Assembly: GCF_037042905.1 (NCBI RefSeq)
Contig: NC_087245.1
Location: forward strand, 28,398,001-28,462,000
Reading direction: 5' to 3'
Source of the DNA: Lytechinus pictus
Lineage: Eukaryota
DNA length: 64,000 bases
Part shown: piece by piece, positions 1 to 49,467 of the stretch
Numbering within the stretch: the first letter of the stretch is position 1
How the letters are laid out: each line of letters opens with the position of its first letter
Notes under the pieces: generated by a model
Seen by the model: the letters and a program-made list of their open reading frames with translations, nothing else
What the model was told of the DNA's origin: nothing
Database searches by the model: none
Program-made: the position numbers and the translations under genes

Positions 1-1300
1 TACTCACCCAATACGTCTTTAATCAATCCAGGCATTCCCACTGATGCTTTTCACAAAGTAGTCTGGACTTTGGGGTGAGCAGTTATAATCATTCCCCATG
101 GAAGCTTACATCCATCTGACTTTAACTGATTTCTCTCCTTTCATCTTTAAAACCTTCTGAATACAATCTCATTAAAATTCTCTGAGCTACTCTACTACTC
201 TCATATAACAAAATTCCCATTAAAATTACTTCTTTTATTCTACTCCCGAACCCTCTTTACAAATTAATTTCCCAAACTGAACATCATCCACAGCTATAGG
301 CTACATTTTCAATCACATACAAAACAAACAGTATTAAGTACCCTACAAAGATCTGAAGTTCATTAACTTGGTTACCAGCAAAACCGAAATTCTTTTCTTA
401 AATGCTAGCATTAACTCTCCCATTCAATCTTAACTAAGCCAGTCAACTTAACCCTATATACACTCTAAAAATATTGTGTAAAATTGCTCCCTGAGGGTAA
501 TTATGTGTCCAACCAACATTGGGAATTTCTTTTGGGCATTTTTATTTATTCAGTGTGATGACTGAAAATTTTGCCTATTCTAAATAACCATACTGGCTTC
601 CCGCATTGAGTAAAATACTGCCCCACATTGATTGGACACATGTTATCTGTGATGCCCGGGCACCATGGCCCTGGGAAGCGGGGGGGGGGGGGGATCGGGG
701 AGTGCTGAAGCACCCCCAAAAAATAGTTGGGGATTCTGCGTGTACTGTTTTCCATAGGCAGCACCCCCAGGTATTCTGAAAGATGTGTAAAATTGGGAAA
801 AAAGGTAACCAAAAAGACCTCAATTTTGTAGTGAAACCCCCTTATTTTTGCTTTTCAAATTTACATCAGCACCCCCAGTCAAAAATCGTTCCCAGGGCCC
901 TGCCGGGCACGCGGTTACGAAATAACGCAACATTATGTAAGTACATGTCAGACCAAAAATAAAAACTTAATATGTACAAAGTAAATACAAAATGTCTTTC
1001 ATCTAAAATTCACAAATGAGTGAACATTCTCACTTGATTGTCATGCAATAGCATTTAATATTATACTATTTATGACTGAAATAATGTCATCGATGATATT
1101 AGTCGAAAAAAAATAAAAGATTGAAAAAAACAAAGAAGTAAAAAAGAAAATTAAAAAAAGATTTCATTAGCGTAATTTTTGGCTTGTAGTTGTTAGGAAT
1201 GCCACAAAGAATATTTTCACCAAAAATTAGCTTTCTAGGAGTGAATTAGAGCAAAAAGTATGATGAATAAATAATTCATATAAAAAGAAATATATGATAA
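1..1300 (+). repeat. Trf 5' flank, duplicated segment (copies at 5137-5798 and 47105-48400)
   Basis: Near-identical sequence starting TACTCACCCAATACG at 1, 5137 and 47105. Confidence 0.95.
664..902. mobile_element. hAT-like MITE
   Basis: Termini CATGGCCCTGGGAA / TTCCCAGGGCCCTG; 8-bp TSD CCGGGCAC at 656-663 and 903-910; paralogous copy at about 47754-48005. Confidence 0.75.
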
Positions 1301-1805: not shown

Positions 1806-1813
1806 TATAAATA
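1806..1813 (+). promoter_or_regulatory. TATA box of the Trf gene
   Basis: TATAAATA about 130 nt upstream of the ATG at 1937. Confidence 0.7.
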
Positions 1814-1936: not shown

Positions 1937-3728
1937 ATGGAGTTGAAAGCAACTGTGATCGTTGCTATCCTGGCTGCACTTGCTATGTCAGGTAAGCTCT
2001 CAAATTTGCATTTCGATCATCTGAAGGTATTATTACAAGATAATATTTTGATTATCGAAATTTATTGATAGAAAACCAGCTATTTCTATTTTGTTTGTTA
2101 AAGGAGGAATAACACTTCATATCATTATCAATCACCACTGCTGTATTAATGGGGCCCCCAAACGTTTTGTGACCAAGCAAAATTTTCAATACGAGAAAGA
2201 AAGAAAAGGAGTGCAATATGATTTTATTTTTTTAATGTAAAATTTTTTCACCAATTCAGATTTTCATTTCAGAAGGTCAAAATTTTCCCTCGCGATTTTC
2301 AAAAATATTTCCCCATACGCAAGGTTTTAATGTGTCATTATTATTGTCATTATTATTTTGGGAAGTGGGTGATTATGTCTTTGCCAAAGCTGTAACTCGT
2401 AATTCAACAATAATCATGATTTTCAGTATTCTAATTTTGTTGGGGGTTGCTAATACAAAAGAAACTTGCCTATGTCAAATGGTTTATATGCTAAAATCTG
2501 TCAAATATTTTAAAGTTTAATATGACTATACATGTCACATCGCACCAAACAAACAATGAAATTGTTATTGTTCTTATAAATTTGGACTATAAGAACTAAA
2601 TCATCATAAATCTTTAATCACATAAAATATATATGAAATATCAGACAGCAAGATATAGGCCTAGGCTCATTATTGGTAAAAATTAACATTGTAAAAACTA
2701 AGACAAATATTTAACAGAAATATCACATCGGAAATAATTCATATCATTGGAATCCTGAAAGGCTTAAGAAACTAATAGATTAATTGAAATTATTAAGTTT
2801 TCTGTACATTTTCCTCTTTTACAGCTAATGCACGAAGAGGTGATCGTGGAGGTATGGGGCCAGGGAGAGAGAGAGGGGAGAGGGTCGTTTGGGAGGAAGA
2901 CCTGACGGAGTGCCAATGGGTGGGCCAAGGCGAGGAGGTGGTGGAATGATAAATGGAAGGAGGTTTGATGGCCCCGGGTTGGGGCTTGGTGCCCCTCAGA
3001 GGGACCAACGAAGACAATTTGGTGGTCCGATGGTTGGTGGAAGAAGATCTGACGGTCCTTTCCGTGGCTCCAGACCTGAAGGAGTTGGAAGACCTTTCTT
3101 CGGTCAAGACGGAACCAGACGTGATGGTGGAGAAGAAGAAACCGCAGATGCCTCCAAAGAGTCTAAATCAATCTTTGATCGTTTTGGACTCGGTCCGCTT
3201 TTTAGAGGACAATCACGAGATCGGGGTCGTCTTCAGGATCAAGGAGGTCAGCATAACGACAACAGCGAAGAGGATGGAGGTCATCGTCACCATCACCATC
3301 GCTACCACCCCCACCATCATCACCACCGTCATAATCATACTGAAGGCCAACGCCCTCACAACAAGACGGGAGATTACCCACATCGTCATCACAACAAGAC
3401 CGGAGACGGGGATAGGGACGGACCAAGGTTCCAGATGAGGCCTTTCCGGTTCTTCAAAAACTGGCCATTTGGAAGACACAACCGAACCGAGGAAGGATCT
3501 CACGGACATAATGGCCGCCGCCATCCTTTTGGCAACCGAGGACGCTGGGGATCACATGAAAGCGAGGAGGAAGAGGAGGAGGAGCAGAAGCAGCAGGAGT
3601 CAACAACTAGGGAAAATGCAACCCCATCTTCCCCATCGGAAGTGATAACACCATCCTCCCAACCGGAAGTGATTGAGATTGCAATCAATGACAATGAAAT
3701 AGATACTAATGTTATCGGACAACTGTAA
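1937..3728 (+). CDS. Trf (185/333): Transformer (Trf / Sp185/333-family) immune effector gene, 2 exons (1937-1991, 2825-3728); frameshifted early in exon 2 as assembled (possible pseudogene allele or assembly error)
   Basis: Exon 1 encodes the leader MELKATVIVAILAALAMS followed by a GTAAG donor. Intron 1992-2824 ends TTTTACAG. Exon 2 has a Gly/Arg-rich region (GGRRFDGP, GRPFFG, GEEET), a His-rich region, N-X-T sites, an acidic tract and the C-terminus PEVIEIAIND...VIGQL*, all typical of 185/333 proteins. The spliced frame reaches TGA at 2947; removing 2 nt from (GA)5 at 2865-2874 gives a 318-aa ORF. Confidence 0.93.
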
Positions 3729-4097
3729 ATTTTGTTTTGAAAATTACTGATACTGTAAAAATGAAGTCTTCCATATCTTTCCTCTAGTATTGACTGAGGA
3801 AAATTCCTGACGATGTTTCATCGATACTCAGGCATCCATATTTTTTTTAATTACAAAGAGACAAGAAAATTTAATAAAGATACAACACGTTCCCTCATGA
3901 ATTTGACCTTTATCATTATTGAAAGACTTGTAAAATAAACATGATAAATATCATACCACACTCGTGTTTTCATAGCATTACTTTTTCATACACTACTAGA
4001 TAATTTTTACATAATTACTGAAAGAGAAAAGGAGAGAACTATAGGAGTGAGCATGGTGAAAGAAAATAGGGGAGATAGATGCATGGGAAACTATTAT

Positions 4098-5798
4098 GTG
4101 TGTGAAGTGCTACAGACAGAAGCTTGAAAGGAGAAAGAGGGACGAGCCAGAGAAGCCTAGAGAACTGAAGAGAGAGAGAGTGCGATATCAATAAATAGAC
4201 ACATGAGAGATTGGGAGTAGAAAGATCATGAAGATATATAGAGAAGAAGAGTGATGGATATATTGAAGAGTGAGAGAGAGATGGAAGGGGAAAGGATGGG
4301 GTTGTTACTATAGCAATATAATGAGGTAAATTGTTACAGTATCTACCCCCATCCCCATCGTCCCAATGCTCAAGTGATCGGATCGACGGCTATATATTCC
4401 TTTAAAACACATCTTAAAAACATGCTCATCCCCCCTCATCCTGATTATTGTTGTTAGCAACGCCTCCATCATTTCCCTCCTCAATCAATCCCTTAGCCCC
4501 TGCTTGAGTTTAGGTTATCTTTAAGTTATTTTCCTTATTGTTTTACATTTTTTTAGTTTTTCTTTTCAGTCCCCCTATTGCTTTTAATCATATTTTGTTT
4601 TTATTATCATATTGTATTTTGTTGCTTTCACCAATATTGTACGTTTTTATGATTTAATTCATATGATTTTGTGCTTTTGTCATTACCATGTTTGATTGTG
4701 TATTGTACTTTTTATTTTGTGTGTTTATGGACCCCTACGAAAAACAGCATTTGCTGATAGAGTGTTCCATCCCACTAGTGAAAAATAAATATATAGATAA
4801 AAAGATAAAAATAAATGATATGAATGTAACTTACATCAAGTACATATCTCGAGGTGAGGTGAGTCATTGGCCGGTCTGCTTGGAGTTTTCCACGATGTTG
4901 TCGCAAAGAGTCCACTCCCAGTACATGCCCGCCAGAATGACATAGATTGCAGCTTTCTCCTATTATAGGCCTGTGTAGGGATGTGTCTGGTGTATTTAAC
5001 ACCTTTTGGAATTAGATCACCCAGAGTGGAACAAGATTTATGATCAGCATAGGGAATGTCAATGGTAATTGTACACAGTCTTGACAGTTGGCTGAAGACT
5101 TTCTCGCTGGAACACTGAGTTGCATGGGTTTACACGTACTCACCCAATACGTCTTTAATCAATCCAGGCATTCCCACTGATGCTTTTCACAAAGTAGTCT
5201 GGACTCTGGGGTGAGCAGTTATAATCATTCCCCATGGAAGCTTACATCCATTTGACTTTAACTGATTTCTCTCATTTCATCTTTAAACCCTTCTGAATAC
5301 AATCTCATTAAAATTCTCTGAGCTACTCTACTACTCTCATATATACAAATTCCAATTAAAATTACTTCTTTTATTCTACTCCCGAACCCTCCTTACAAAT
5401 TAATTTCCCAAACTGAACATCATCCACAGCTAGAGGCTACATTTTCAATCACATACAAAACAAACAGTATTAAGTACCCTACAAAGATCTGAAGTTCATT
5501 AACTTGGTTACCAGCAAAACCGAAATTCTTTTCTTGAATGCTAGCATTAACTCTCCAATTCAATCTTAACTAAGCCAGTCAACTTAACCCTATATACACT
5601 CTAAAAATATTGAGTAAAATTGCTCCATGATGGTAATTATGTGTCCAACCAACATTGGGCATTTCTTTTGGGCATTTTTATTTATTCAGTGTGATGACTG
5701 AAAATTTTACCCATTCTAAATAACCATACTGGCTTCCCACATTGAGTAAAATACTGCCCCACATCGATTGGGCACATATTATTTGTGATCGCCGGGCA
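4098..5798 (+). repeat. Trf 3' flank (GA-rich start) running into a second copy of the 5' flank; duplicated segment
   Basis: 4098-5136 matches 38600-40069 plus 46936-47104, and partly 6160-6951; 5137-5798 matches 1-662. Confidence 0.92.
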
Positions 5799-6951: not shown

Positions 6952-7286
6952 CATAACTTTTGGTATCCCCCAGACTGCATAATTATCCCGATAATTATTT
7001 GCTTATTCAAATATCGTTGGTAATGGTGCATAACAATAATATATAAGAGGCATAAACATGTTAACCAGATACGTATCCACACAATCAATTACCATATATT
7101 TTCGTTCCTTTGTTCATAATAATACTATTCTGATGAAACTCGAGCCGCCATTCGACCATTGCTATAGTACAGGTCCCCAACTTGTTGTTCTGTAAAATGT
7201 ACATGAGGTGATAATGGTTATGAGTATGATATGATTTTCATCATCATCTATATAATCGATGTATAGGCCTAATTATAAGAATTATA

Positions 7287-8954
7287 CACTGTGTTGGTCA
7301 TAAAGGTGGAATAAAATATTTTTGAATAAAAATCGACAGTTTTGTTGGTATTTGAAAGGCTACGCGTAGACAAAATGGTAATTGAGTGATTACATAATGT
7401 TTCCCCATTACACAGGTGACATTATAACATGAGAAATTTTGATTACGTAATAAATTATTTTGTTGTAGACTATAAAAGCCTTTGCATATGATATTCTGTC
7501 CCTTTCCCTGATTTAGCACTGTGTATAAGAAGGTTGCATTTTTTCGAGTTCCTTGTACCTTTTGAAATAAAAATCGGTAGAGACGTTCCCTGGACTATGC
7601 CTGGTCCAACGGCAAAAGCAACACGCGAAAAGTGGTAGCACTGCGACAGGAGGGCTACCAGCAGACTGATATCGCAGAAGTCCTAGGGATATATCACAGA
7701 GTGCAGTCTCTAAGATCCTGAAACGTCAACGTGAGGCGGGGAATGTGCGGCCACGGAAATCTCCAGGACGTCCCAGATTGACCACAAGAAGAGATGATGA
7801 TCGCCAACTGTTGAATTTCAGCCGCAGAAACCGGAAATTGCCCACGAGCCGTCTTCGTCGCTTGTGGGGAGAATATCATGGGATCAACGTTTCCCGGTCA
7901 ACCGTTAATCGCATATTACTCCAACATGGTTATACCGAGCACGACGGTTGATCAAATGTCCACGCCTGTCTGTTCGCCACAGAGTAGCTCGTCTTCTTTG
8001 GGCTAGGGAGCACAGAAGGCTTCATCCAGGACATTGGCAACATGTGGTCTTCACGGACGAGAGCCGGTTCATCCTTGACCGAAAGAATGGGAGACAACGA
8101 GTTCGTCGATTAGCCGGGGAAAACCTTTGCGATGAATGTATCCACGAGACGACTCAAGGCGGAGGCGGCTCAGTGATGATATGGGCCGGCATCCATTATA
8201 GAGGGAAAACGCCACTGGTGGTTCCGGACGGAAACGTCAACGCCGCCGCCTACAGGGATATCTTGGAGTTCCACTGTCTTCCATATGCAAGACGAGTGTA
8301 TGGGCACAATTTCCGACTGCATAATGACAACGATAGACCGCACAGGGCCGCTGCAGTAAGGGAATTCCTGGAGGCAGAGGGTGTCGTACAGTCGCCATGG
8401 CCAGCTTGTTCGCCGGATATGAACCCCATAGAGCATGCATGGGATGCCCTAGGCCGAGCCATCAACGACAGAGAGGTCATTCCTCAAAATCTGCAGGAGT
8501 TGGCAGATGCTCTGAGGGAAAAATGGGACGCTATGCCTGTTGACGTCATCAACAAGCTAGTGGACAGCATGCCACGACGTCTGCATGCTGGTTCGTGCCA
8601 GTGGTGGACATACCCGATACTAGTGACTGAGTAAGAACAATGACTCAAGTTTGATGCAAATTTGTCCATGAAATCACAAAAAAGAAGTCATCTGGAAAAC
8701 TGAGAGAGATTGAAAATAAATATCTCATGATCCTTTAATTTACTGTATATTGTCGTCATTGTTGTTCTATGCTCATGACATCCATCGCTTAGGACATAAA
8801 CTTGTAAAATATCACCGTCAAACGTGTGTAAAAGGCAGAATAATAAAGTAAAGTGGTTATCATGCACCATAAATGCCATATTCAAATCATGTTGTAATAA
8901 TTACGCAGTGAAAATTTGGTGAAAAAAAAAATTCCACCTTTATGACCAAAAGTG
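7287..8954 (+). mobile_element. Tc1-family DNA transposon, full length but decayed
   Basis: TIRs CACTGTGTTGGTCATAAAGGTGGAAT / ATTCCACCTTTATGACCAAAAGTG with TA on both sides; internal transposase remnant. Confidence 0.93.
7597..8623 (+). pseudogene. Tc1 DD34E transposase pseudogene (several frameshifts)
   Basis: Motifs GRPRLTT, WQHVVFTDESRF, GGGSVMIWAGI, D-34aa-E ending SPDMNPIEHAW; C-terminal GGHTRY* is in a shifted frame; N-terminus from ATG 7597 is broken. Confidence 0.92.
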
Positions 8955-9199
8955 TATTTGATTGGAATAATTTATTAGAATAATTCATCGATAGTCCTCC
9001 ACGGTGAGGTTTCGCGCTCACCAGCCCTACCCCGCGGCTCTACCCCTCCGGATCCTGGCGGCATGTCCCTTGTAAAAAAAAACCATGGTTTGATGTTAAG
9101 GTAAAACCATGGTTTTGCATTGGATCCATTGTACAGTAATTTCATAGTTTAACCATAGTAAGATATGGTTTAATTATGGTGAAATCATGGTGCACTAGT

Positions 9200-10700
9200 G
9201 TTTAACCATAGTTAAACTAAAGCTTTAGCATGGGTAAACCATGGTAACCATGGTTAAATGGTGTTAAATTGGAACGCACTTACCATGACATTACTATGGC
9301 ATAACCATGGTCACAACTGTGTTTTTACCATATTTTAACAATGGTTAAGAAAGTATAAAACCATGGTAAAGAGAAGGTGAAACCATGGTTAGAAAAAGGT
9401 GAAACCATTGTTTTACAGCTGCCAAACCACATAATTACAACCCGAATCACGGTAAAACCATAATCAATTGTATGGTAGACCCACCTTTTGACCATAGTGC
9501 AATATTGTATGATGATGGTTAAACCATGTCAAAGTACTGTCTAGCCATGGTTTAACCATGGTTTACCACGGTTAAACTATAGGTTTAGCATGGGTAAACC
9601 ATGGTAACCATGGTTAAAAGGTGTTAAATTGGAACGCACTTACCATGACATTACTATGGCATAACCATGGTCACAATTATGTTTTTACCATAGTTTAACA
9701 ATGGTTAAGAAAGTATAAAACCATGGTAAAGAGAAGGTGAAACCATGGTTAGAAAAAGGTGAAACCATTGTTTTACAGCTGCCAAACCACATACTTACAA
9801 CCCGAATCACGGTAAAACCATAATCAATTGTATGGTAGACCCACCTTTTGACCATAGTGCAATATTGTATGATGATGGTTAAACCATGTCAAAGTACTGT
9901 CTAGCCATGGTTTAACCATGGTTTACCACGGTTAAACTATAGGTTTAGCATGGGTAAACCATGGTAACCATGGTTAAAAGGTGTTAAATTGGAACGCACT
10001 TACCATGACATTACTATGGCATAACCATCGTCACAATTATGTTTTTACCATAGTTTAACCATGGTTAAGAAAGTATAAAACCATGGTAAAGAGAAGGTGA
10101 AACCATGGTTAGAAAAAGGTGAAACCATTGTTTTACAGCTGCCAAACCACATAATTACAACCCAAATCACGGTAAAACCATAATCAATTGTATGGTAAAC
10201 CCACCTTTTAACCATAGTGCAATATTGTATGATGATGGTTGAACCATGTCAAAGTACTGTCTAGCCATGGTTTAACTATGGTGTACCACGGTTAAACTAT
10301 AGGTTTAGCATGGGTAAACCATGGTAACCATGGTTAAAAGGTGTTAAATTGGAACGCACTTACCATGACATTACCATGGCATAACCATGGTCACAACTGT
10401 GTTTTTACCGTACTATAACCACGGTTAAGAAAAGGTGAAACTATGGTTAAGAAAGTATAAAACCATGGTAAAGGGTAGGTAAAACCATGGTAAAGCGAAG
10501 GTGAAACCATGGTTAGAAAACGGTGAAACCATTGTTTTACAGCAGCCAAACCACATAATTACAACCCAAATCACGGTAAAACCATGATCAATCATATGGT
10601 AAAACCACCTTTTAACCATTAGTGCAATATTGTATGATGATGGTTAAACCATGTCAAAGTACTGTCTAACCATGGTTTAACCATTGTATATACCACGGTT
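9200..10700. repeat. 360-bp tandem repeat, about 4 copies, AACCATGGTT-rich (left subterminal array)
   Basis: TGGGTAAACC at 9231, 9591, 9951 and 10311. Confidence 0.95.
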
Positions 10701-20059: not shown

Positions 20060-22234
20060 CTTCCCGCTACCAGGAAAGAAAATTGTATTGTAGTCTATTA
20101 AAAATTTTGATTTGAAATTAAGATACAGTACTATTACGACACAACGGTCCAGCGATGGTATTTCCATTTTTCATCACATGAAAATTCATTCATTTCATAA
20201 TAACCAACCATACTTAAAATTCATACAAATTTCAGACAATTCCACTATTAGTGACACATATGGAACAACACTTCCTAAATTAATAACTTAACCCATTTGT
20301 GACGAAATTCCACATTACGTGGTTTGGCCTCGGATTTTTCATGAATAGTTGTAGGGCCTATATATGAAAATACCAAGGAGACTCGAAAGTAAACACTAGA
20401 ACTATTGGCATTACTTTTCTTTTGGTAACAATCATCGCCGCTATGGCTAGGAAAATGCGCATATCTTTCAGTTGTGTACAACTGTGTAGATCTACTATCG
20501 TAATGTGCATGCATGCTGTAGAAATCGTCGAAACAAGGAGCCAGCCACGTTCCCACAACCACACTCTGAACTTACCAAAAAAAAACACAGATTTTCACAT
20601 GGAAAAACATATACAGACATATGAATTGTACTCCCGCTTAAAAATAAAGGATTTATTAAAACATACTACTTTGCAGCTAGCTGATCCATTGGTCAAGTAT
20701 TACTAATTAAATGAGGACTAATTAACCCGCAGTAGCAGAGTCTGTAGCCTAGGCCTAGAGACTAGACCCATCAAAAAAAAAGAATACAGATCAGTGGACT
20801 GAATGCTGTTGCCGTTCAAAAGTATAACATTAATTAGGACCACCGACACCGTACTCTAACCGTTAACGTAAACTTTAAAAAGTTAAAGTATACTATAGAT
20901 CTAGATCTAGAGTCTAGACCCTAGTCGATAGTCTAACATTAATTAAGCCAGTAGATCTAGTACAAAATTTTTCTTCATACTCGATGGCAGCCAACAAGTT
21001 TTTTTTTCAGGTAGGCCAAGCGCTAGCCTAAGTTAGGCCTAGGCTAGGGCCGGGACTAGGCTATGAGTATACGACGTGTTCCACCATAATAATAAATCTG
21101 GTCCAAAGGCAAAGTCCAAGGCAAGCTTAAGCCTATAATATATAGCCATAAATAACTTTTAGGCCCTACATGTAGCCAGCCCCAATGCCATGGCTTCAAC
21201 TTCAAGTTGAAGTCAGAATACATTTCTAGACCCATGCAACACTCCTAATCAAAATAAATGCAGCAACATTACAGACTAAGGCAAACTCTTGAAATAATCC
21301 ACTGCACTGCACAGTGACACTGCCTGCTGCAGAGTGCAGTATAGTACCGTACGGTTCTACTCGGGCTTGGTACGGTACGCGCACAATCCGCCGAGTGTTC
21401 AATTTCCGAGTCATGCAAGGCCAAGGAGGTGCCAGGAGTGGACTAATTCACGAGAATGCCCAACAGATTACTTGATTAGATAAGCTTACTTACCGTTAAC
21501 TATCTCCTGACAGTTCCATAAATTGTCTGTTCTCCTATAGTTTCAGTTAAAAAATTAGTTGAATGCAGTTAATTGCCTGAATTTCATGAACTTGAAGCTT
21601 AGCTAGCCCTTAATTGGCCTTCGAAGCGCAGCATTAAGCTGATTGTATCTATTCTGCACGGCGTACGTGTGTGTGTGTGTGCATTTGTCTATGGTGTGTA
21701 TAGCATACATGTGCGGGTTGTGCGTTACACATGTGGTACTTGGTGGTACTACTAGTACATCGACGCGCATAAAAAAGGGCGCGAAAATGAGCGGGAGGGG
21801 TGGGGGGGGGGGCAGGCGGGGAATGCGCGAAATTCGTGTTGAACACAATTATAAAGTAGACAGGTTCAAAATGACAAATGATATATATATATACGTATAG
21901 ACAGACAATGTTTAGTGACTGGGCAGACATATTTTGAAATTATACAAAAAGATAATATAGTCCTATTAAAAAAAAAAAAAAAACACCAGCGGCCACCCCC
22001 GGCCCGACTACCTTCAAGATCAACAACAACGGCCCTGCTTAGTTAGTAATTCAGGTCGCAGGCCTTTATAATTTTAGTCATGCCTTTGGATGGCCGAAAG
22101 TTAGTTAGTCAGAAACCACAATTAATAGTCAAGCCTGTCTTTTTACGAAATACGAGTAATGAAAAACCTTCGTTAGTCCATGCACAGCTGAGTTAGTCGT
22201 GACAAGCTTTATAGGCCCAGACTAACAAAGTTAG

Positions 22235-25200
22235 TACCTTGGTAAAACGGGAATTTAATCATGCTTTTTGTAACCAATGTTTTTACACTTTCATTAAACC
22301 ACGGTTAAAACCATGGTTATATAACAATCATTTTCAAACTATCATAAAACCATGGTTAAAATCATGGTGTATAACCGTCGTTTTCAACCTTGGTAAAACG
22401 CAAATTTAACCATGGTTTTGTAACCACTGTTTTTACACTTTCATTAAACCACGGTTAAAACCATGGTTATATAACCATCATTTTCAAACTATCTTAAAAC
22501 CATGATAAAAATCATGGTTTATAACCGTCGTTTTCAACCTTGCTAAGACGAATGTTTAACCATGGTTTTGTAACCACTGTTTTGACACTTTCATTAAACC
22601 ACGGTTAAAACCATGGTTATATAACCATAATTTTCAAACTATCATAAAACCATGGTTAAAATTATGGTGTATAACCGTCGTTTTCAACCATGGTAAAACG
22701 GAAATTTAACCATGGTATTGTAACCACTGTTTTTACACTTTCATAAAACCACGGTTAAAACCATGGTTATATAACCATAATTTTCAAACTATTATAAAAC
22801 CATGGTTAAAATCATGGTGTATAACCATCGTTTTCAACCATGGTAAAACGGAAATTTAACCATGGTATTGTAACCACTGTTTTTACACTTTCATTGAACC
22901 ACGGATAAAACCATGGTTATATAACAATCATTTTCAAACTATCATAAAACAATGGTTAAAATCATGGTGTATCACCATCGTTTTCAACCATGGTAAAACG
23001 GAAATTTAACCATGGTATTGTAACCACTGTTTTTACACTTTCATTAAACCACGGTTAAAACCATGGCTATATAACAATTAATAGTCAAGCCTGTCTTTTT
23101 ACGAAATACGAGTAATGAAAAACCTTCGTTAGTCCATGCACAGCTGAGTTAGTCGTGACAAGCTTTATAGGCCCAGACTAACAAAGTTAGTACCTTGGTA
23201 AAACGGGAATTTAATCATGCTTTTTGTAACCAATGTTTTTACACTTTCATTAAACCACGGTTAAAACCATGGTTATATAACAATCATTTTCAAACTATCA
23301 TAAAACCATGGTTAAAATCATGGTGTATAACCGTCGTTTTCAACCTTGGTAAAACGCAAATTTAACCATGGTTTTGTAACCACTGTTTTTACACTTTCAT
23401 TAAACCACGGTTAAAACCATGGTTATATAACCATCATTTTCAAACTATCTTAAAACCATGATAAAAATCATGGTTTATAACCGTCGTTTTCAACCTTGCT
23501 AAGACGAATGTTTAACCATGGTTTTGTAACCACTGTTTTGACACTTTCATTAAACCACGGTTAAAACCATGGTTATATAACCATAATTTTCAAACTATCA
23601 TAAAACCATGGTTAAAATTATGGTGTATAACCGTCGTTTTCAACCATGGTAAAACGGAAATTTAACCATGGTATTGTAACCACTGTTTTTACACTTTCAT
23701 AAAACCACGGTTAAAACCATGGTTATATAACCATAATTTTCAAACTATTATAAAACCATGGTTAAAATCATGGTGTATAACCATCGTTTTCAACCATGGT
23801 AAAACGGAAATTTAACCATGGTATTGTAACCACTGTTTTTACACTTTCATTGAACCACGGATAAAACCATGGTTATATAACAATCATTTTCAAACTATCA
23901 TAAAACAATGGTTAAAATCATGGTGTATCACCATCGTTTTCAACCATGGTAAAACGGAAATTTAACCATGGTATTGTAACCACTGTTTTTACACTTTCAT
24001 TAAACCACGGTTAAAACCATGGCTATATAACAATCATTTTCAAACTATCATAAAACCATGGTTAAAATCATGGTGTATAACCGTCGTTTTCAACCTTGGT
24101 AAAACGCAAATTTAACCATGGTTTTTGTAACCACTGTTTTTACACTTTCATTAAACCACGGTTAAAACCATGGTTATATAATCATCGTTTTCAAACTATC
24201 TGAAAACCATGGTTAAAATTTTTGTTTATAACCGTTCCCACTGGGCAATTTGTTACCGATTACCAATTTTACCGGTTATTACCGGTAATATCACCCGGAA
24301 ATTTGAGTAACACCAAATATTACCGTTATTACCATGCTATTACCGAAATTATAATTCCTGTTGATACCTGTTACTGTTATCACCCTGATGAAACCGACAT
24401 TTACCGAGTTACAACAGGGTGACGATGGGTAATAAGGGTAATGATGAATGACTTTGATTGGTTATAACATTGCAAACTTTAGTAATAACAGTAATCTTAC
24501 AGCAATCCCAGCAAAATTGTCAAAGTCCAAAAAATTACTGTTATCACCCTGATGAAACCAACATTTTACCCAGTTACAAACAGGTTGATAAGGGGTAATG
24601 GGTAATGTTGAAGCGCTTCCATTCCCAGACAGCAAAGTATCTGGATCACATACGGTTCTTATCTGGGATATCTGGGTCCCATATGGGCCCACATGGAACC
24701 CAGATGAAAACATATACTTGAACCCACATGGTGCCCAGATAGGACTCAGATGGAAACGAGACCTCCAACCCATGCGGAACCCATTAATATTGGGTAAATG
24801 GAGTAATATCAGATGGTAATATCAGGAAAATGCTGGGAATATTAGTTACTCATGAATATTCATTACTACAATAAATGGCCAAAATTTTAGCTAATATAGC
24901 TGTAATAATTAATGTGTTTATGTTTATGCAATTATTCCACCCAGAAAATTTTCAGAAAAATGTGTAGTTTATATATCATATTAGTCATAATCATGACATT
25001 AATTTTAGAAAAATGTTTTAGGGTTGAATAATTGTTAACCATAATTTGTCAAGTGTTGTAAAACTCGCTCAATATATAGAAGTAAATGACAGGGTTTGGT
25101 GGATAGGTGTAGGATAGGATTAGGATTAGGATGTAGGATTTTAGGATAGGATAAGATGATATGGCTTAGAGTATGGAGTTGTAAAAATGTGCTTCAATGA

Positions 25201-26330
25201 CCCTAATGACACTAATTGTTTTTTTAATGAGCCGACATTAATTGGGTAATATTGGGTAAACAGAGTAATATGAGGTGGTGATATCATTAAAATGCTGGAA
25301 ATATCGGTTACATCATACTGGGTAATATTGGGTAAATGGAGTAATATCGGGTCCGGGTAATAACGGGGAAAGATTGGTCTACTATTTCCCCGTTACTACC
25401 CACTGGTGTTACCGTGGTAATAACTACGTTATTACCTGTTACAACCCGGGTAATATCGGGTAAAATGCCCAGTGGGTTGTTTTCAACCTTGCTAAGACGA
25501 ATGTTTAACCATGGTCTTGTAACCAATGTTTTTACACTTTCATTAAACCACGGTTAAAATATGGTTATATATAACAATCATTTTCAAACTGTCATAAAAC
25601 CATGGTTAAAATCATGGTGTATAACCGTCGTTTTCAACCTTGGTAAAACGGAAATTTAACCATGATTTTGTAACCACTGTTTTTACACTTTCATTAAACC
25701 ACGGTTAAAACCATAATTATATAACCATCATTTTCAAACTATCATAAAACCATGGTTAAAATCATGGTGTATAACCGTCGTTTTCAACCATGGTAAAACG
25801 GAAATTTAACCATGGTATTGTAACCACTGTTTTTACACTTTCATTAAACCACGGTTAAAACCATGGTTATATAACCATCATTTTCAAACTATCATAAAAC
25901 CATGGTTAAAATCATGGTGTATAACCGTCGTTTTCAACCATGGTAAAACAGAAATTTAACCATGGTATTGTAACCACTGTTTTTACACTTTCATTAAACC
26001 ACGGTTAAAACCATGGTTATATAACCATCATTTTCAAACAATCTTAAAACCATGGTTAAAATCATGGTGTATAACCGTCGTTTTCAACCTTGGTGAAACG
26101 GAAATTTAACCATGGTTTTGTAACCACTGTTTTTACACTCTCATTAAACCACGGTTAAAACCATGGTTATATAACCATCATTTTCAAACTATCTTAAAAC
26201 CATGGTTAAAATCATGGTGTATAACCGTCGTTTTCAACCTTGGTAAAACGGAATTTTAACCATGGTATTATAAATACTGTTTTTATGCTATCATAAAACC
26301 ATGGTTTAAATCATGGTTTTATAACATTGA
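22235..26330. repeat. 120-bp tandem repeat array, AACCATGGTT-rich (right subterminal array), interrupted by an insertion at 24237-25476
   Basis: Sequence repeats every 120 nt (TCATTAAACCACGGTTAAAACCATGG). Confidence 0.95.
24237..25476. mobile_element. Non-autonomous CMC-like element inserted in the 120-bp array
   Basis: TIRs CCCACTGGGCA / TGCCCAGTGGG; 2-bp TSD TT; host repeat unit (ATAACCGTT|GTTTTCAACC) rejoins when it is removed; TTACC/GGTAA subterminal motifs. Confidence 0.82.
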
Positions 26331-26835
26331 TTTCCAACCTTAGTAGAACGGGAGTTAAACCAAGGTTTCATAACCATTGTTTTTATACTACTGTGAAACC
26401 ATGGTTACAACCATGGTTAAATTACTATGGTTTTTTTCACCAAAGTAGAACGATGATTTTGTCATGGTTTTATAACTATTGTTTTTTAACTTTCTTAAAA
26501 CTGTGGTATAATGATGGTTTTTATAACCATGGTTTTAAAATCGTCATAAAATGACATTTTTATCATGTTATTATAACTATGGTATTTTAACAATGGTATT
26601 ACCACACTTCCGCCACACATTTACCTTGGTTATGAATTTAAAACCATGGACTACCATCGATCCATTGTAAAACCGCCCCTAACCATGGTTATACCATGAT
26701 TACGGTTGTAAAACCATGGTTTTTTTTTATAAGGGGTATAACTGATACATGGTGTATTTATTTATCCATTACCATATTTGTTAATTCTAGATCAAATGAA
26801 TAATAATGAATGATGCTATATACAAGAATAAATGG

Positions 26836-27180
26836 ACATTAGACCAAGTGTGAATTAGACCAAATGAAAATTAGACCAAGTGACGATTAGCCCAAGTGGG
26901 CATTAGACCATTCGGCTATTAGACCAAGTGGTCATTAGACCATTCGGCTATTAGACCAAATGGTCATTAGACCATTTGGCTATTAGACCAAGTGGATATT
27001 AGACCAAGTGGAAATTAGACCAAACGGTCATTAGACCATATGACAATTAGACGAAATGAAAATTAGACCAGAAGTGGGAATTAGACGAATTGGATATTAG
27101 ACGAACTGGTTATAGTCGAAATGGATTTAGACTATGTGAAGTTGGACAAACTGATAAGTAGACCAAGTGGTATTAGACCA
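26836..27180. repeat. ~19-bp minisatellite with ATTAGACCA core
   Basis: More than a dozen degenerate ATTAGACCAA-N9 units. Confidence 0.85.
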
Positions 27181-36213: not shown

Positions 36214-36843
36214 ATGTCTGATTACTCTTTTCGTAACTCTAGCGATGGGCGTCAGTCCAGCCTGAGCGTACAGGGCGAGTCCATGGGCAGAGACACTTTG
36301 AATGAAAATGTGAAAAGATCCTACAGGTATCGCGTGGTATCAAATGATTCATCGGTGGACGAGACACTCTTCGGATCACACAGAGACAGGAGTAGGAAGA
36401 CACAGGGTGGATGGAGTGATAGTCCATCACAAAGAGCGTCCCCAAGTGGGACTAGGAAATCTCCCGCTATCAAGCCCACACTAACTGTGTCCCCTTCTAT
36501 GCCAAAGACAAAGAATAGGTACCGGATTGTCCAGCACACGCCGACTTACGTGGACCACTCGCTCTTTGGGGGGCCACTTGAGAAACCCTCTTTTGAGGCA
36601 CCTTGGACCGACAAGAAAGCTGATAGACGTCGGAACACGCCTCTCATGTGGGGGTCCCCAGTTCAGGGTAGCCTCGAATTTGAATCGACATCGAACTCGT
36701 CCATGGGTGGTGAGCGTCCTTTGTCATCCGTTGGAAGTCGGCCTGGGTCGGCCACAGGAGGTAGGTCGTCTGCTGGAAGCAGGCCTCAGTCTGCATCAGG
36801 GAGGCGCTCAGTAACACCTAGTAAACCACCTCCTTGGAAGTAA
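36214..36843 (+). CDS. RITA1: RBPJ-interacting and tubulin-associated protein 1 ortholog, 209 aa, single coding exon
   Basis: Motifs YRV...SSVDETLFGS, KNRYRIVQHTPTYVDHSLFG and C-terminal KPPPWK* correspond to RITA1 (YVDETLFGS, KNKYRPISHTPSYCDESLFG, KPPWK); polypyrimidine acceptor TTTTCTGCAG at 35932 suggests a spliced 5' UTR. Confidence 0.9.
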   Translation: MSDYSFRNSSDGRQSSLSVQGESMGRDTLNENVKRSYRYRVVSNDSSVDETLFGSHRDRSRKTQGGWSDSPSQRASPSGTRKSPAIKPTLTVSPSMPKTKNRYRIVQHTPTYVDHSLFGGPLEKPSFEAPWTDKKADRRRNTPLMWGSPVQGSLEFESTSNSSMGGERPLSSVGSRPGSATGGRSSAGSRPQSASGRRSVTPSKPPPWK

Positions 36844-44819: not shown

Positions 44820-45900
44820 TGTTGCGCCCCCGGTCGAACATAAATTTGCATGGAGCCCCCTAAATTCAAGGTCAATTTGGCGCCCTCGGTTGAACATGAA
44901 TTTGGCGCCATGTGAAATATCACTTTGCCCTCCACCTTCTGAAACATGTATATGTCGCCTTATGGTCAAACATCAAATTAGCGCTCCCCTAGTTCGAACA
45001 TCAATTTGGCGCCCCGCTAGTTTGAACATCAATTCGGCGCTCCCCTAGTTCGAACATCAATATGGCGTCCCTCCCAGTTCAAACATCAATTTAGCGCCCC
45101 CATCTAGTTCGAAAATTAATTCGCCCCCTCCCCCTTGTTCAAACATCAATTCGGCGCCCCATAGTTCGAACGTCATTTTGGCGCAGCCTAGTTCTAACAT
45201 CAATTTGGCGCCCCCCTCGTTCGAACATCAATTTGGCGCCCCAAGTTCGAATATCAATTCGGCGCCCCCTAGTTCAAACACCAATGTGGTGCCCCTAGTT
45301 CAAACATCAATTCGGCGCCCCCCCCCTAGTTCGAGTATCAATTCGGCGCCCCTACATGTAGGTCGATCATCAATTCGCCCCCCCCCCCCCGTTCGAACAT
45401 CAATTCGACCCCCAGTTCTAACATCGTTTTGGCATCCCTTCGAACTCAATTTGGCTTCCCTAGTTCGAATATCATTTCGCCCCCCTAGCTCGAGTATCAA
45501 TTTGGCGCCCCCTAGTTCGAACATCGATTCGGCGCCCCCCTAGTTTGAGTATCAGTTTGGCGCCCCCTAGCTCGAACATCGATTCGCCCCCCCCCCCTAG
45601 TTCGAGTATCAATTTGGGGCCCCCAGTTCGAACATCATTTTAACATCCCTTCGAACATCATTTTGGCGCCCTCCTAGATCGAATATCAATTCGGCGCCCC
45701 TACATGTAGGTCCAACATCAATTTGGCGCCCCTAGTTCGAATATCATTTCGGCCCCCCTAGCTCAAGTATCAATTTAGCGCCCCCTAGTTCCAACATCAA
45801 TTTGGCGCCTCTACGTCGAACATCAATTCGGCCCCCAGTTCGAACATCATTTTGACATTCATTCGAACATCATTTCGGCGCCCTTTTGGTTCGAACATCA
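44820..45900. repeat. ~30-bp minisatellite (TAGTTCGAACATCAATTTGGCGCCCCC)
   Basis: Roughly 30 degenerate tandem units. Confidence 0.92.
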
Positions 45901-46875
45901 TTTTCTTTCCTCCTCTTCCTCTTTTTTTCTTCTCGTCCTTCCCCTCTTCCTCTCCCCTCTTCTTCTTTTCTTTCCCCCCGTTCTGTCTCTTTTTTCTTCT
46001 CTTCTTTCTTCCCACTTCCTCTTTCTCCTTTTCCTTTTCCCCTCTTCCTCTCTCTTTTCCCCCTCTTCTTTCCCCTCTTCCTCTTTTTTCTCCCCCTCCC
46101 CCTCCCTTTTCTTCTCTTCTTTCTTCCCTCTTCCTCTTTCTCCTTTTCCTTTTGCCCTCTTCCTCTCTCTTCCCCCCTCTTCTTTCCCCTCTTCCTCTTT
46201 TTTCTCCCCCTCCCCCTCCCTTTCCTTCTCTTCCTTCCCCCTCTTCCTCTTTTTTCTCTTTCTTTCCCCTCTTCTCCTTTTTTTTCTTTTATTTCCCCCT
46301 CTTTCTTTTTCTTCTTTTCTTTCCCCTCTCTTTTTTTCTCTTCTTTCCTCTCTTTCCTTTTCTTTTCCCCTCTTCCTCTTTTTTCTTCCCCCTCTCCCTC
46401 CCCCTCCCTTTTCTTCTCTTCCTCTTTTTTTCTCCTTTTCTTTCCTCTTTTTCCTCTCTCTCTTTTTCTTCTCTTCCTTTCCCCCTTCCCCTCTCTCTCT
46501 TTTTTTCTCCTTTTCCTTTCCCTCTCTTTTTCCTTCTCTTTCTTTCCCCTTTTCCTCTCCCTTTTCCTTTCCCCTCTTCCCTTTTTCTTCTTTTCTTTCC
46601 CCCTTTCCTCTCTCTTTTTTCTCCTCTTCCTCCTTCCCCCTCTTCCTCTCTCTTTTCCCCTCTTCTTTTCCCCTTTCTCTCTCTTGTCTTCTTTCCTCCT
46701 TCTTCCTCTCTCTTTTTTTCTCCTATTCCTTTCCCCCTCTCCCTCTCTCCTTTCCTCTTTTCTTTCCCCCTTTTCCTCTCTCTTTTTTCTTCCCTTCTTC
46801 CCCCTCTTCCTTTCTTCTTTTCTTTCCCCTCTTCCCCTCTTTTTTCTCTTTCTTTCCCTCTTTTCTTTTTTTTTA
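45901..46875. repeat. ~975-bp polypyrimidine (CT/GA) island
   Basis: Almost only C and T on the + strand. Confidence 0.97.
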
Positions 46876-49467
46876 GCCGAAGGGGGGGAGGGGGCCAAGG
46901 CCCCCTCGGCCCCCCCCCCCATGGATCCGCGCCTGGGCCTATGTAGCGAAGTGTCTGGCGTATCTAACGTCTTTTGGAAATAGATCACCCAGAGTGGAAC
47001 AAGATTTATGATCAGCATAGGGAATGTCAATGGTAATTGTACACAGTCTTGACAGTTGGCTGAAGACTTTCTCGCTGGAACACTGAGTTGCATGGGCTTA
47101 CACGTACTCACCCAATACGTCTTTAATCAATCCAGGCATTCCCATTGATGCTTTTTATAAAGTAGTCTGGACTCTGGGGTGAGCAATTATAATCATTCCC
47201 CATGGAAGCTTACATCCATTTGACTTTAACTGATTTCTCTCATTTCATCTTTAAACCCTTCTGAATACAATCTCATTAAAATTCTCTGAGCTACTCTACT
47301 ACTCTCATATATACAAAATTCCCATTAAAATTACTTCTTTTATTCTACTCCCGAACCATCTTTACAAATTAATTTCCCAAACTGAACATCATCCACAGCT
47401 AGAGGCTACATTTTCAATCACATACAAAACAAACAGTATTAAGTACCCTACAAAGATCTGAAGTTCATTAACTTGGTTACCAGCGAAACCGAATTCTTTT
47501 CTTGAATGCTAGCATTAACTCTCCCATCCAATCTTAACTAAGCCAGTCAACTTAACCCTATATACACTATAAAAATATTGTGTAAAATTGCTCCATGGTG
47601 GTAATTATGTGTCCAACCAACATTGGGCATTTTTATTTATTCAGTGTGATGACTGAAAATTGTGCCCATTCTAAATAACCATACTGGCTTCCCGCATTGA
47701 GTAAAATACTGCCCCACATTGATTGGGCACATATTATTTGTGATGCCCGGGCACCAAGTCCCTGGGAAGCGGGGGGGGGGGGGGGGGGGGGGGCGGTCGG
47801 GGAGTGCTGAAGCACCCCAAAAATATAGTTGGGGATTCTGCGTGTACTATTTTTCATAGGCAGCAACCCCAGGTATTCTGAAAGATATGTAAAATTGGGG
47901 AAAAAGGTAACCAAAAAGACCTTCATTTTTGTAGTGAAACCCCCTTATTTTTGCTTTTCAACTTTACATCAGCACCCCCAGTCAAAAATCGTTCCCAGGG
48001 CCCTGCCGCCTGCCGGGCACACGGTTACGAAACTACGCAACAATATGTAAGTACATGTCAGACCAAAAATAAAAACGTGATATGTACAAAGTCAATACAA
48101 AATCTCTTTCATCTAAAATTCACAAATGAGTGAACATTCTCACTTGATTGTCAATAATCATTTAATATTATAATATTTATGACTGAAATAATGTCACCGA
48201 TGATATTTGTCGAAAAAAAATAAAAGATTGAAAAAACAAAGAACTAAATAAGAAAAATCATTTAATTAGCGCAATTTTTGGCTTGTAGTTGTTAGGAAGG
48301 CCACAAAAGAATATTTTTACTAAAAAATAGCTTTCTAGGAGTGAATTACAGCAATAAGTATGATGAATAAATAATTCATATAAAAAGAAATATATGATAA
48401 CAGAATGGGTTACTAATTGTTCGAAAAATTGACTTTAGGCAAACAGCTTTTCATGAAACGACCCGGCCTGGCTGGTTTTGACAGTGGATGTGGTTTGCTC
48501 TTCATGAGCTATTTTTGGTCTTGGTGTACATATTCTCCTGATTGAATTTACTTGAAGAAAAGTAATGTACTGAATTTAATTTCTTGACATTTTCAGCCCA
48601 TTCCATGTTTACGAAGTGGTTTATACGGTATTTTAAAAAAGATGAATTAAACTATAAAGACACTGAAAAGTAATTTTTTAATGTAAATCACCAAATTTAC
48701 CTGTTTTTTTTTGGGGGGGAGGATTAATTTGAGTTTCCATTTAAAAGTTGTGTATGGTTGGTGGAAAGGAAAGTAGGTGCAATTGACTGTCCATGTACTT
48801 ATGACCGATGTAATGAGAGACAAATATCTAGGGGTCTAATTTCGATACATTTCACTTACTAAGAATTGTAATGGCACCCTAAATTGATGTTTTGTCAATA
48901 GTTTATTTTAAATTTGGAATGTGAATGAGTACATATATATGTATTATTCAAATTAATTCAATTCAATTGAAAAATGATTCATTAAAACATGGCTGAATAA
49001 AAACATGTGTAGAATTTACAATAACAGAATGATAATTTAAAGTACAAACATGAAATGATATAGATGTAAATTGACATTTAGTTTATTCATACTTGTACAA
49101 ATGTAAATGAATTATAAATCAAGAATGATATATTATGTATGTATTTTGTAATTTATTTTGTACATAATTACACGGTAACCAATTATCAGCTGTAGAAGGT
49201 TGCAATGTAATGCAAAGTAAAATAAATATGAAAGGAGAAGATTTGCTTATGTTCTTTTCATTTGTGTATTGAACAGGAGTAAATAAATAACCTAAAAATT
49301 GTTTGAAGGTTTGCATGGTGGTGTAAACAGTCATGGAAATGGTTTACGGTACACCATCTGTAAAGTCCTGGCAAGGACAAAGAGAAGTGGATAGAGGTAG
49401 AAGTGAATTAGAGAGGAAAGAAAGTGAAGATTGGAAAGTAGAGATCTTTCAGAAGGTAAACCAGAAA

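What the first reader, a model, noticed from the sequence alone, without database searches (positions are those of the whole stretch)
2825..2949. Trf reading frame is set by a coding (GA)n microsatellite
Seen: after splicing, the frame reads ANARRGDRGGMGPGRERGE, then missense, then TGA at 2947 (59 aa in total). The family-typical protein continues in another frame that is closed by TGA at 2841, so the shift lies between 2844 and 2946. Removing one GA from (GA)5 at 2865-2874 gives PGRERGEGRLGGRP, in line with the conserved RERGQGRFGGRP, and a clean 318-aa ORF with no other lesion. Known: Sp185/333 transcripts often encode truncated or missense proteins. Inference: repeat slippage could act as a reversible full-length/truncated switch in an immune gene. 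An assembly error is equally possible.
Basis: partly seen in the sequence, partly recalled or inferred. Interest (0 to 1): 0.72.

Follow-up and report, generated by a model that had tools for sequence, protein, structure and literature searches.

The report
Frameshifted sea urchin Transformer gene copy
A copy of a known sea urchin immune gene (Transformer, formerly 185/333) has two extra bases in a short GA run that cut its protein short, but expressed copies from other animals are intact, so this looks like a one-off broken allele or an assembly error rather than an on/off switch.

Summary
A two-exon Trf (185/333) gene, probably Lytechinus pictus, stops at TGA 2947 after 59 aa; the frame is 318 aa without one GA unit at 2865-2875. 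The switch reading is not supported. Transcript contigs from two studies confirm the intron and lack those two bases at full depth (2430.6 of 2430.6; 31.3 of 31.3); no five-unit form was listed. The run is a by-product of Arg-Glu-Arg codons. S. purpuratus genes carry (AG)5 in frame at this site (10 of 14 rows seen), in a family where 197 of 198 genes are intact (PMC5491942). None of four truncated relatives shifts frame here. The window haplotype differs from every laid contig at 9 coding sites, so its own reads were not sampled. A recent germline null allele (0.48) and an assembly indel (0.42) cannot be separated; a reversible switch gets about 0.03. If real, it is a rare intron-bearing broken Trf copy. 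The scan's earlier notes held no Trf finding.

The parts
1806..1811 (+). TATA box candidate
   Evidence: Only TATAAA in 1700-1937. Function not tested; one contig (X5) reaches 1800, upstream of it.
1937..1991 (+). Exon 1 coding part, 55 nt, hydrophobic leader
   Evidence: 83% identical to residues 1-18 of P0002; covered by X1 and X5 contigs.
1992..2824 (+). Single phase-1 intron, 833 nt, GT..AG
   Evidence: Joint 'skips 833, GT..AG' in the X5 contig; loose ends in X1 match the same joint.
2825..3728 (+). Exon 2 coding region: Gly-rich part, acidic patch, His-rich part, acidic C-terminal part; stop at 3726-3728
   Evidence: P0001 is 89% identical to P0002 and 41-54% to named 185/333 proteins.
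2865..2875 (+). (GA)5G run, one unit longer than in expressed alleles; site of the +2 frameshift
   Evidence: two letters left out at 2865 in X1 and X5 at full depth.
2841..2843 (+). TGA closing the body frame upstream (bounds the shift)
2947..2949 (+). Premature TGA of the spliced frame (59-aa product)
3873..3878 (+). First AATAAA after the stop (second at 3934)
   Evidence: the X5 contig covers the 3' UTR to 3900.

Best explanation
This is an ordinary Trf (185/333) gene whose haplotype in this assembly carries a recent, one-off germline gain of one GA unit. The conserved G-R-E-R-G motif is written with AGA/GAG/AGG codons, which leaves a four-unit GA run by accident of coding. One replication slip made it five units, moved the frame by +2 and brought in TGA 2947. 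If transcribed, the allele would give the leader, about 19 in-frame residues and about 22 missense residues, without the Gly-rich body or the His-rich region, so in effect a null. Shown: gene structure, splice, lesion site, intact expressed alleles. Inferred: that the extra unit is in the animal's DNA, that it arose by slippage, that it is recent and that it is functionally null.
For: The haplotype looks real and unsampled. It differs from all covering contigs at 9 listed coding sites, 4 of them synonymous, so four units in other animals does not convict the assembly. None of the 5 indels listed against transcripts is a single base, although exon 2 holds 16 homopolymers of four or more. The RITA1 frame in the same window is intact (98.6% to P0015). 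The window has Leu at 2889-2891 where 12 of 13 relatives have Phe in register; the 13th has a deletion pattern. The gene is alone in the window, and PMC5491942 speculates that frame correction may not reach isolated copies.
Against: Broken genomic copies are very rare in this family: 197 of 198 SpTrf genes intact (PMC5491942) and 54 of 54 single-cell exon-2 sequences intact (PMC6563789). That prior favours an error. No laid run shows five units. No DNA run of the same species label was identifiable among the 24 listed. Only about 2 kb of the window could be checked for accuracy, too little to bound the error rate. The 4 synonymous of 9 differences suggest the haplotype was under selection until lately.
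Confidence: 0.48

Rival explanations
1. Assembly consensus error: the animal's gene has four units and is intact (318 aa). The extra GA was introduced in a 23-nt purine tract, perhaps helped by mixing of alleles or paralogs.
For: 2 of 2 contig sets covering the site have four units at full depth. The family almost lacks pseudogenes (PMC5491942, PMC6563789, PMC5103432). Promoter, splice sites, leader and the rest of the frame are intact. Trf loci are known to assemble badly (PMC5103432). 4 of the 5 substitutions between the window and the 578-nt X1 piece lie in 2891-2952, next to the indel, which could mark a noisy or mixed patch.
Against: No single-base indel among the 5 listed; RITA1 intact; a 956-nt tandem duplicate is letter-identical between copies. 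The nearby substitutions include a three-state synonymous site (2921), which looks like true polymorphism.
Confidence: 0.42
2. A real, retained truncated allele: the 59-aa product is secreted as a short Gly/Arg-rich peptide with an RGD, and works like the truncated Gly-rich SpTrf forms proposed as surveillance proteins.
For: Leader and splice sites are intact and the stop lies in the last exon. Missense and truncated SpTrf proteins are translated, and a recombinant Gly-rich fragment binds more broadly (PMC5491942, passages).
Against: Only about 19 mature residues are in frame, far fewer than in E2.1-type truncations, which keep the Gly-rich region. No five-unit transcript was seen in X1 or X5.
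Confidence: 0.06
3. Reversible slippage switch: repeat length flips often enough, in germ line or coelomocytes, to toggle full-length and truncated protein.
For: The lesion is in the repeat. Five dinucleotide units is at the threshold where slippage begins to exceed background in human GT/CA repeats (PMC2940325). Somatic diversification of SpTrf genes is reported (PMC6563789). Contigs drop rare variants and the raw-read run gave only 2 reads, so rare flips are untested.
Against: A single 587-nt contig crosses the site unbranched at depth 2430, while branches at depth 2.3 and 288 were kept elsewhere in the same gene. The intact run is only 9 nt. A 10-nt run at the same codons is in frame in 10 of 14 S. 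purpuratus rows seen, and 17 of 17 BAC genes read through. 0 of 4 truncated relatives shift here. Paralogs break the run freely (ACA or AAG codons: TERG, RKRG), so it is not conserved as a repeat.
Confidence: 0.03
4. The frame is rescued after transcription, by a downstream splice acceptor or a -1 ribosomal shift.
For: Six downstream AGs (2871, 2880, 2895, 2910, 2934, 2937) would restore the frame on paper.
Against: Their upstream pyrimidine share is 0.10-0.35 against 0.80 for the used site, and all are GAG; 0 of 33 heptamers fit a slippery site. The only joint listed is the canonical one.
Confidence: 0.01

Closest known systems
SpTransformer (Sp185/333) genes of Strongylocentrotus purpuratus; also HeTrf and PlTrf
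   Same: Two exons, 55-nt leader exon, phase-1 intron, RERG-x-GRFGGRP start, Gly-rich then His-rich regions, N-x-T sites, acidic patches, no Cys in the body (PMC4204807, PMC5491942).
   Different: 41-54% identity. Central RGD absent (RRDG), with an RGD near the mature N-terminus instead. Alone in the window, with no long flanking GA/GAT tracts. Genomic frame broken, whereas 197 of 198 SpTrf genes are intact.
Lytechinus pictus protein P0002 (source name 'serine/threonine-protein phosphatase 1 regulatory subunit 10-like'; by its sequence a Trf)
   Same: 89% identical over the body; N-terminus in register with the four-unit reading.
   Different: Intact, 305 aa; differs at 3 of 18 leader residues by tblastn. 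Whether it is an allele or a paralog was not resolved.
The single known SpTrf pseudogene
   Same: Genomic frame-altering indel in a Trf gene.
   Different: That one is intronless, a possible retroposon, with a deletion (PMC5491942, PMC5103432). This one keeps its intron, TATA box and splice sites.
Edited Sp185/333 mRNAs with frameshifts or early stops (E2.1, E2.4)
   Same: Truncated, partly missense product.
   Different: There the gene is intact and the message altered; here the assembled gene is broken and the messages seen are intact. The 4 missense relatives retrieved shift downstream of RERG.
Bacterial contingency loci (simple-repeat phase variation; recalled, not from a call)
   Same: A coding repeat whose unit number sets the frame.
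   Different: Those are long, hypermutable and seen in both states. This run is 4-5 units and was seen in one state among transcripts.

Membership tests
Trf (185/333) | Sequence similarity to named 185/333 proteins | tested here: met
   8 of 9 hits are named 185/333, E 2.7e-51 to 9.1e-22; the ninth is P0002. No Pfam family matched.
Trf (185/333) | Two exons; short first exon encoding the leader; one intron | tested here: met
   55-nt exon 1, as in HeTrf (PMC4204807); 833-nt intron seen spliced in a contig.
Trf (185/333) | Gly-rich then His-rich region, acidic patches, N-glycosylation sites, no Cys | tested here: met
   5 N-x-S/T sites and 0 Cys in the body.
Trf (185/333) | Central RGD (S. purpuratus feature; not in all species) | tested here: not met
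   No RGD in 2877-3725. PMC4204807 doubts its general importance. An RGD lies at residues 23-25 instead.
Trf (185/333) | Clustered genes flanked by GA and GAT short tandem repeats (S. purpuratus feature) | tested here: inconclusive
   One Trf in the window; only a GA-rich patch at about 4000-4280, partly inside a dispersed repeat. Just 1.9 kb of upstream DNA is in the window and no genome is held.
Trf (185/333) | Induced by immune challenge in phagocytes | not testable with these tools
   Spliced alleles are present at high contig depth, but tissue and treatment are not on record.
Slippage (phase-variation) switch | Both repeat lengths present among molecules or individuals | tested here: inconclusive
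   Only four units in 2 of 2 covering contig sets; five units only in the window. Contigs drop rare variants; raw reads were 2.
Slippage (phase-variation) switch | Repeat long enough to be hypermutable | tested here: not met
   9 nt (intact) or 11 nt (window), at or below the threshold of about 10 nt in PMC2940325 (human, other motif).
Slippage (phase-variation) switch | Repeat conserved as a repeat, with out-of-frame states in relatives | tested here: not met
   14 of 14 S. purpuratus DNA rows seen are in frame (10 with five units, 4 with four); 17 of 17 BAC proteins read through; 0 of 4 missense relatives shift here.

The most novel reading that the evidence does not exclude
The GA run in the first element of Trf exon 2 slips at a raised rate in germ line or in single coelomocytes of this species and reverts, so that five- and four-unit states interconvert and toggle between a full-length opsonin and a short secreted RGD-bearing peptide. 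That would be a DNA-level frame switch in an animal immune gene and a handle on how Trf frames are 'corrected'. Low-frequency flips are not excluded, because only contigs covered the site.
Probability: 0.03. Interest if true: 0.75.

Novelty: new member of a known kind. Interest (0 to 1): 0.17.

Why it matters
As it stands, little: a frameshift in a short repeat in one assembled haplotype is common, and it may be an error. If the extra unit is real it is of modest use to Trf specialists. The near absence of broken Trf genes is called unexplained (PMC5103432, PMC6563789), and the one known pseudogene is intronless. An intron-bearing, promoter-bearing null allele in a tractable species with few Trf copies would let one test whether frames are kept by selection or by gene-conversion repair. 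In practice the gene model needs a curation flag, and the nearest database protein carries a misleading name.

Tried and rejected
Whole genome: none held, so paralog number and the upstream neighbourhood are unknown. Cluster members of P0002 and three other proteins: the query could not be made. Short truncated relatives of P0002 residues 1-120: 0 of 21 candidates passed. Metagenome scan with a pattern just upstream of the run: 0 matches. Run X9 does not cover the site (its piece starts at 2884). Run X23 gave 2 reads, below the listing threshold, and a gap row at a repeat was dropped, so I draw nothing from it. A one-base loss instead of a two-base gain: scores lower and is contradicted. Placing the extra bases at 2879-2882 gives the same protein, but the contigs put the gap at 2865. 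Alternative donors in the intron: none of the 7 other GT sites scanned restores the frame. Alternative acceptors and ribosomal shift: rejected. More genes as accuracy controls: 48 of the 100 ORFs listed were scanned, and only a Tc1 fragment matched Pfam, so RITA1 is the only control. No fold or complex prediction was run: the protein family is reported as disordered (PMC3342357) and the question is not structural. PMC11457506 and PMC8268236 had nothing on Trf frameshifts in the passages returned. Supplements that could not be read and may bear on where cDNA frameshifts fall: the .rtf files of PMC1831783 and the .doc alignments of PMC4204807.

Full report
1. Observation. The window holds a two-exon gene: ATG at 1937, a 55-nt first exon, a GT donor at 1992 and an acceptor ending at 2824. 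Spliced, it gives 59 aa and stops at TGA 2947-2949. A second frame, 2844-3728, is open for 294 codons and closed upstream by TGA 2841-2843. (GA)5 lies at 2865-2874 inside a 23-nt purine tract. Two bases fewer give 957 nt, that is 318 aa and a stop. The repeat is not rare: 13 dinucleotide runs of five or more units and 34 of four or more lie in the window.

2. What the gene is. The body frame finds 9 proteins among 1547 candidates. Eight are named 185/333 (41-54% identity) and one, P0002 from Lytechinus pictus, is 89% identical and intact. A second gene in the window, RITA1 at 36214-36840, is 98.6% identical to an L. pictus protein, so the window is probably from that species (inference). The leader exon, Gly-rich and His-rich regions, 5 N-x-S/T sites and lack of Cys fit the family (PMC4204807 and PMC5491942, passages). 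The central RGD of S. purpuratus is absent. Only one Trf lies in the window. No genome is held, so copy number is open. PMC8634487 (passages) used a single Trf gene from the L. variegatus genome.

3. Where the lesion is. Scanning every break point against the first 50 residues of P0002, a two-base excess in 2865-2881 fits best (44 of 50 identical, score 223, against 215 for a one-base gain). I laid 4 of the 24 runs listed, one from each of four studies, at 90% likeness. X5 shows the 833-nt GT..AG joint. X1 and X5 both lack two letters at 2865, at 2430.6 of 2430.6 and 31.3 of 31.3 depth. X9 does not cover the site and X23 gave 2 reads. X1 is only guessed to be RNA and X5 has no library record, but both are spliced. 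So the expressed alleles have four units and an open frame.

4. Limits of that result. Contigs drop rare variants, so this shows presence of four units, not absence of five. Still, one 587-nt contig crosses the site unbranched, while branches at depth 2.32 and 287.7 were kept at 3373-3462 in the same run. More important, the window haplotype is not among those laid. It differs from every covering contig set at 9 listed coding sites (2891, 2921, 2951, 2952, 3414, 3428, 3510, 3527, 3713; 5 change the residue, 4 do not; 6 rows of that table were not shown, and repeats at 3275-3335 and 3558-3601 were skipped). The reads therefore cannot say whether this haplotype has five units in life.

5. Is it a switch? 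Four lines say no. (a) The run is what Arg-Glu-Arg codons make. In the supplement of PMC8634487 (file 1: search hits and part 1 of 10), 10 of 14 S. purpuratus DNA rows seen carry (AG)5 at these codons and 4 carry (AG)4, all in frame, and 17 of 17 BAC-encoded proteins read through the motif. Some paralogs break the run (TERG, RKRG). Under this gene's own codon usage, G-R-E-R-G gives four or more units with probability 0.069. That is lowish and is told as a point for the other side, but shared ancestry of the codons explains it. (b) The family's genes are almost never broken: 197 of 198 (PMC5491942, passages) and 54 of 54 single-cell exon-2 sequences (PMC6563789, passages; whether their primer spans this site I did not check). 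A hypermutable run should have shown up there. (c) The four short relatives retrieved from the 50% library (6 hits in all), whose tails look like missense sequence, all read through RERG and diverge later (0 of 4 at this site). (d) The intact run is 9 nt, under the roughly 10-nt threshold for raised slippage (PMC2940325, abstract and section 21 part 1; human A/T and GT/CA repeats, so only a guide).

6. Real allele or assembly error? For real: the haplotype's other differences look like polymorphism (synonymous sites, one with three states); none of the 5 listed indels is a single base, despite 16 homopolymers in exon 2; RITA1 is intact; Leu stands where 12 of 13 relatives have Phe; the copy is isolated. 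For error: the strong family prior, the intact promoter and splice sites, known trouble assembling Trf loci (PMC5103432, passages), and 4 of the 5 substitutions of the X1 piece lying within 90 nt of the indel. About 2 kb of checks cannot bound the error rate. I put 0.48 on a recent germline slip and 0.42 on error.

7. Mechanism, steps marked. Shown: splice, lesion, intact expressed alleles. Inferred: one slipped-strand event added a unit; the allele, if transcribed, gives a leader, about 19 correct residues and about 22 missense residues, lacking the binding regions. Reversion by losing a unit is possible, as at any short repeat, but nothing shows a raised rate. Rescue by splicing or ribosomal shift is unlikely: six frame-restoring AGs lack pyrimidine tracts (0.10-0.35 against 0.80) and 0 of 33 heptamers are slippery.

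8. Known and new. It is a member of the Trf family by sequence and structure; two S. purpuratus-specific features (central RGD, flanking repeats and clustering) are absent or untestable. It is not shown to be, or to work like, a phase-variation locus. I found no paper on this copy in searches of the held library, which lacks most subscription papers. The scan's earlier notes had no Trf entry.

9. Verdict. Observation confirmed; switch not supported; an ordinary broken allele or an assembly error. Interest 0.17. Most novel reading not excluded: a reversible repeat switch, probability 0.03, interest 0.75 if true.

Noticed in passing
P0002: The nearest database protein is named 'serine/threonine-protein phosphatase 1 regulatory subunit 10-like' but is plainly a Trf (185/333); it ends 10 residues short of the window's C-terminus.
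   Followed up: partly
window 2836-2844: An RGD lies at residues 23-25, just after the leader, in the window and (no difference listed) in the X1 and X5 alleles; P0002 has RDD there. The central RGD of SpTrf is replaced by RRDG.
   Followed up: no
window 2900-3350: Mosaic alleles: X5 contigs match the window in exon 1 but share P0002-type changes at 3001, 3244 (+3 nt), 3262 and 3350, while X1 is near-identical to the window in 2953-3401. This suggests recombination or conversion among alleles or paralogs.
   Followed up: partly
window 1-662 and 5137-5798; also 46936-48400: A dispersed repeat flanks the Trf gene on both sides (96% identical copies 5136 nt apart). If this is a tandem unit, another Trf could lie just upstream of the window; a third copy at 47 kb has no Trf beside it.
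   Followed up: partly
window 7285-8955: Decayed Tc1/mariner element with terminal inverted repeats of about 25 nt and a transposase split over frames (HTH 7670-7948, DDE_3 7909-8631), 3.5 kb downstream of the Trf.
   Followed up: partly
window 36214-36840: RITA1 (RBPJ-interacting and tubulin-associated protein) coded in one open stretch, 98.6% identical to L. pictus P0015.
   Followed up: yes
window 22118-24029: A 956-nt tandem duplication with no difference between copies, inside a 150-nt satellite array: either very recent or an assembly duplication.
   Followed up: no
window 9211-10469, 22236-26325, 26830-27180, 44969-45854, 45900-46870: Satellite arrays (360-, 150-, 16- and 27-nt units, several rich in CCATGG) and a 1-kb polypyrimidine tract.
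   Followed up: no
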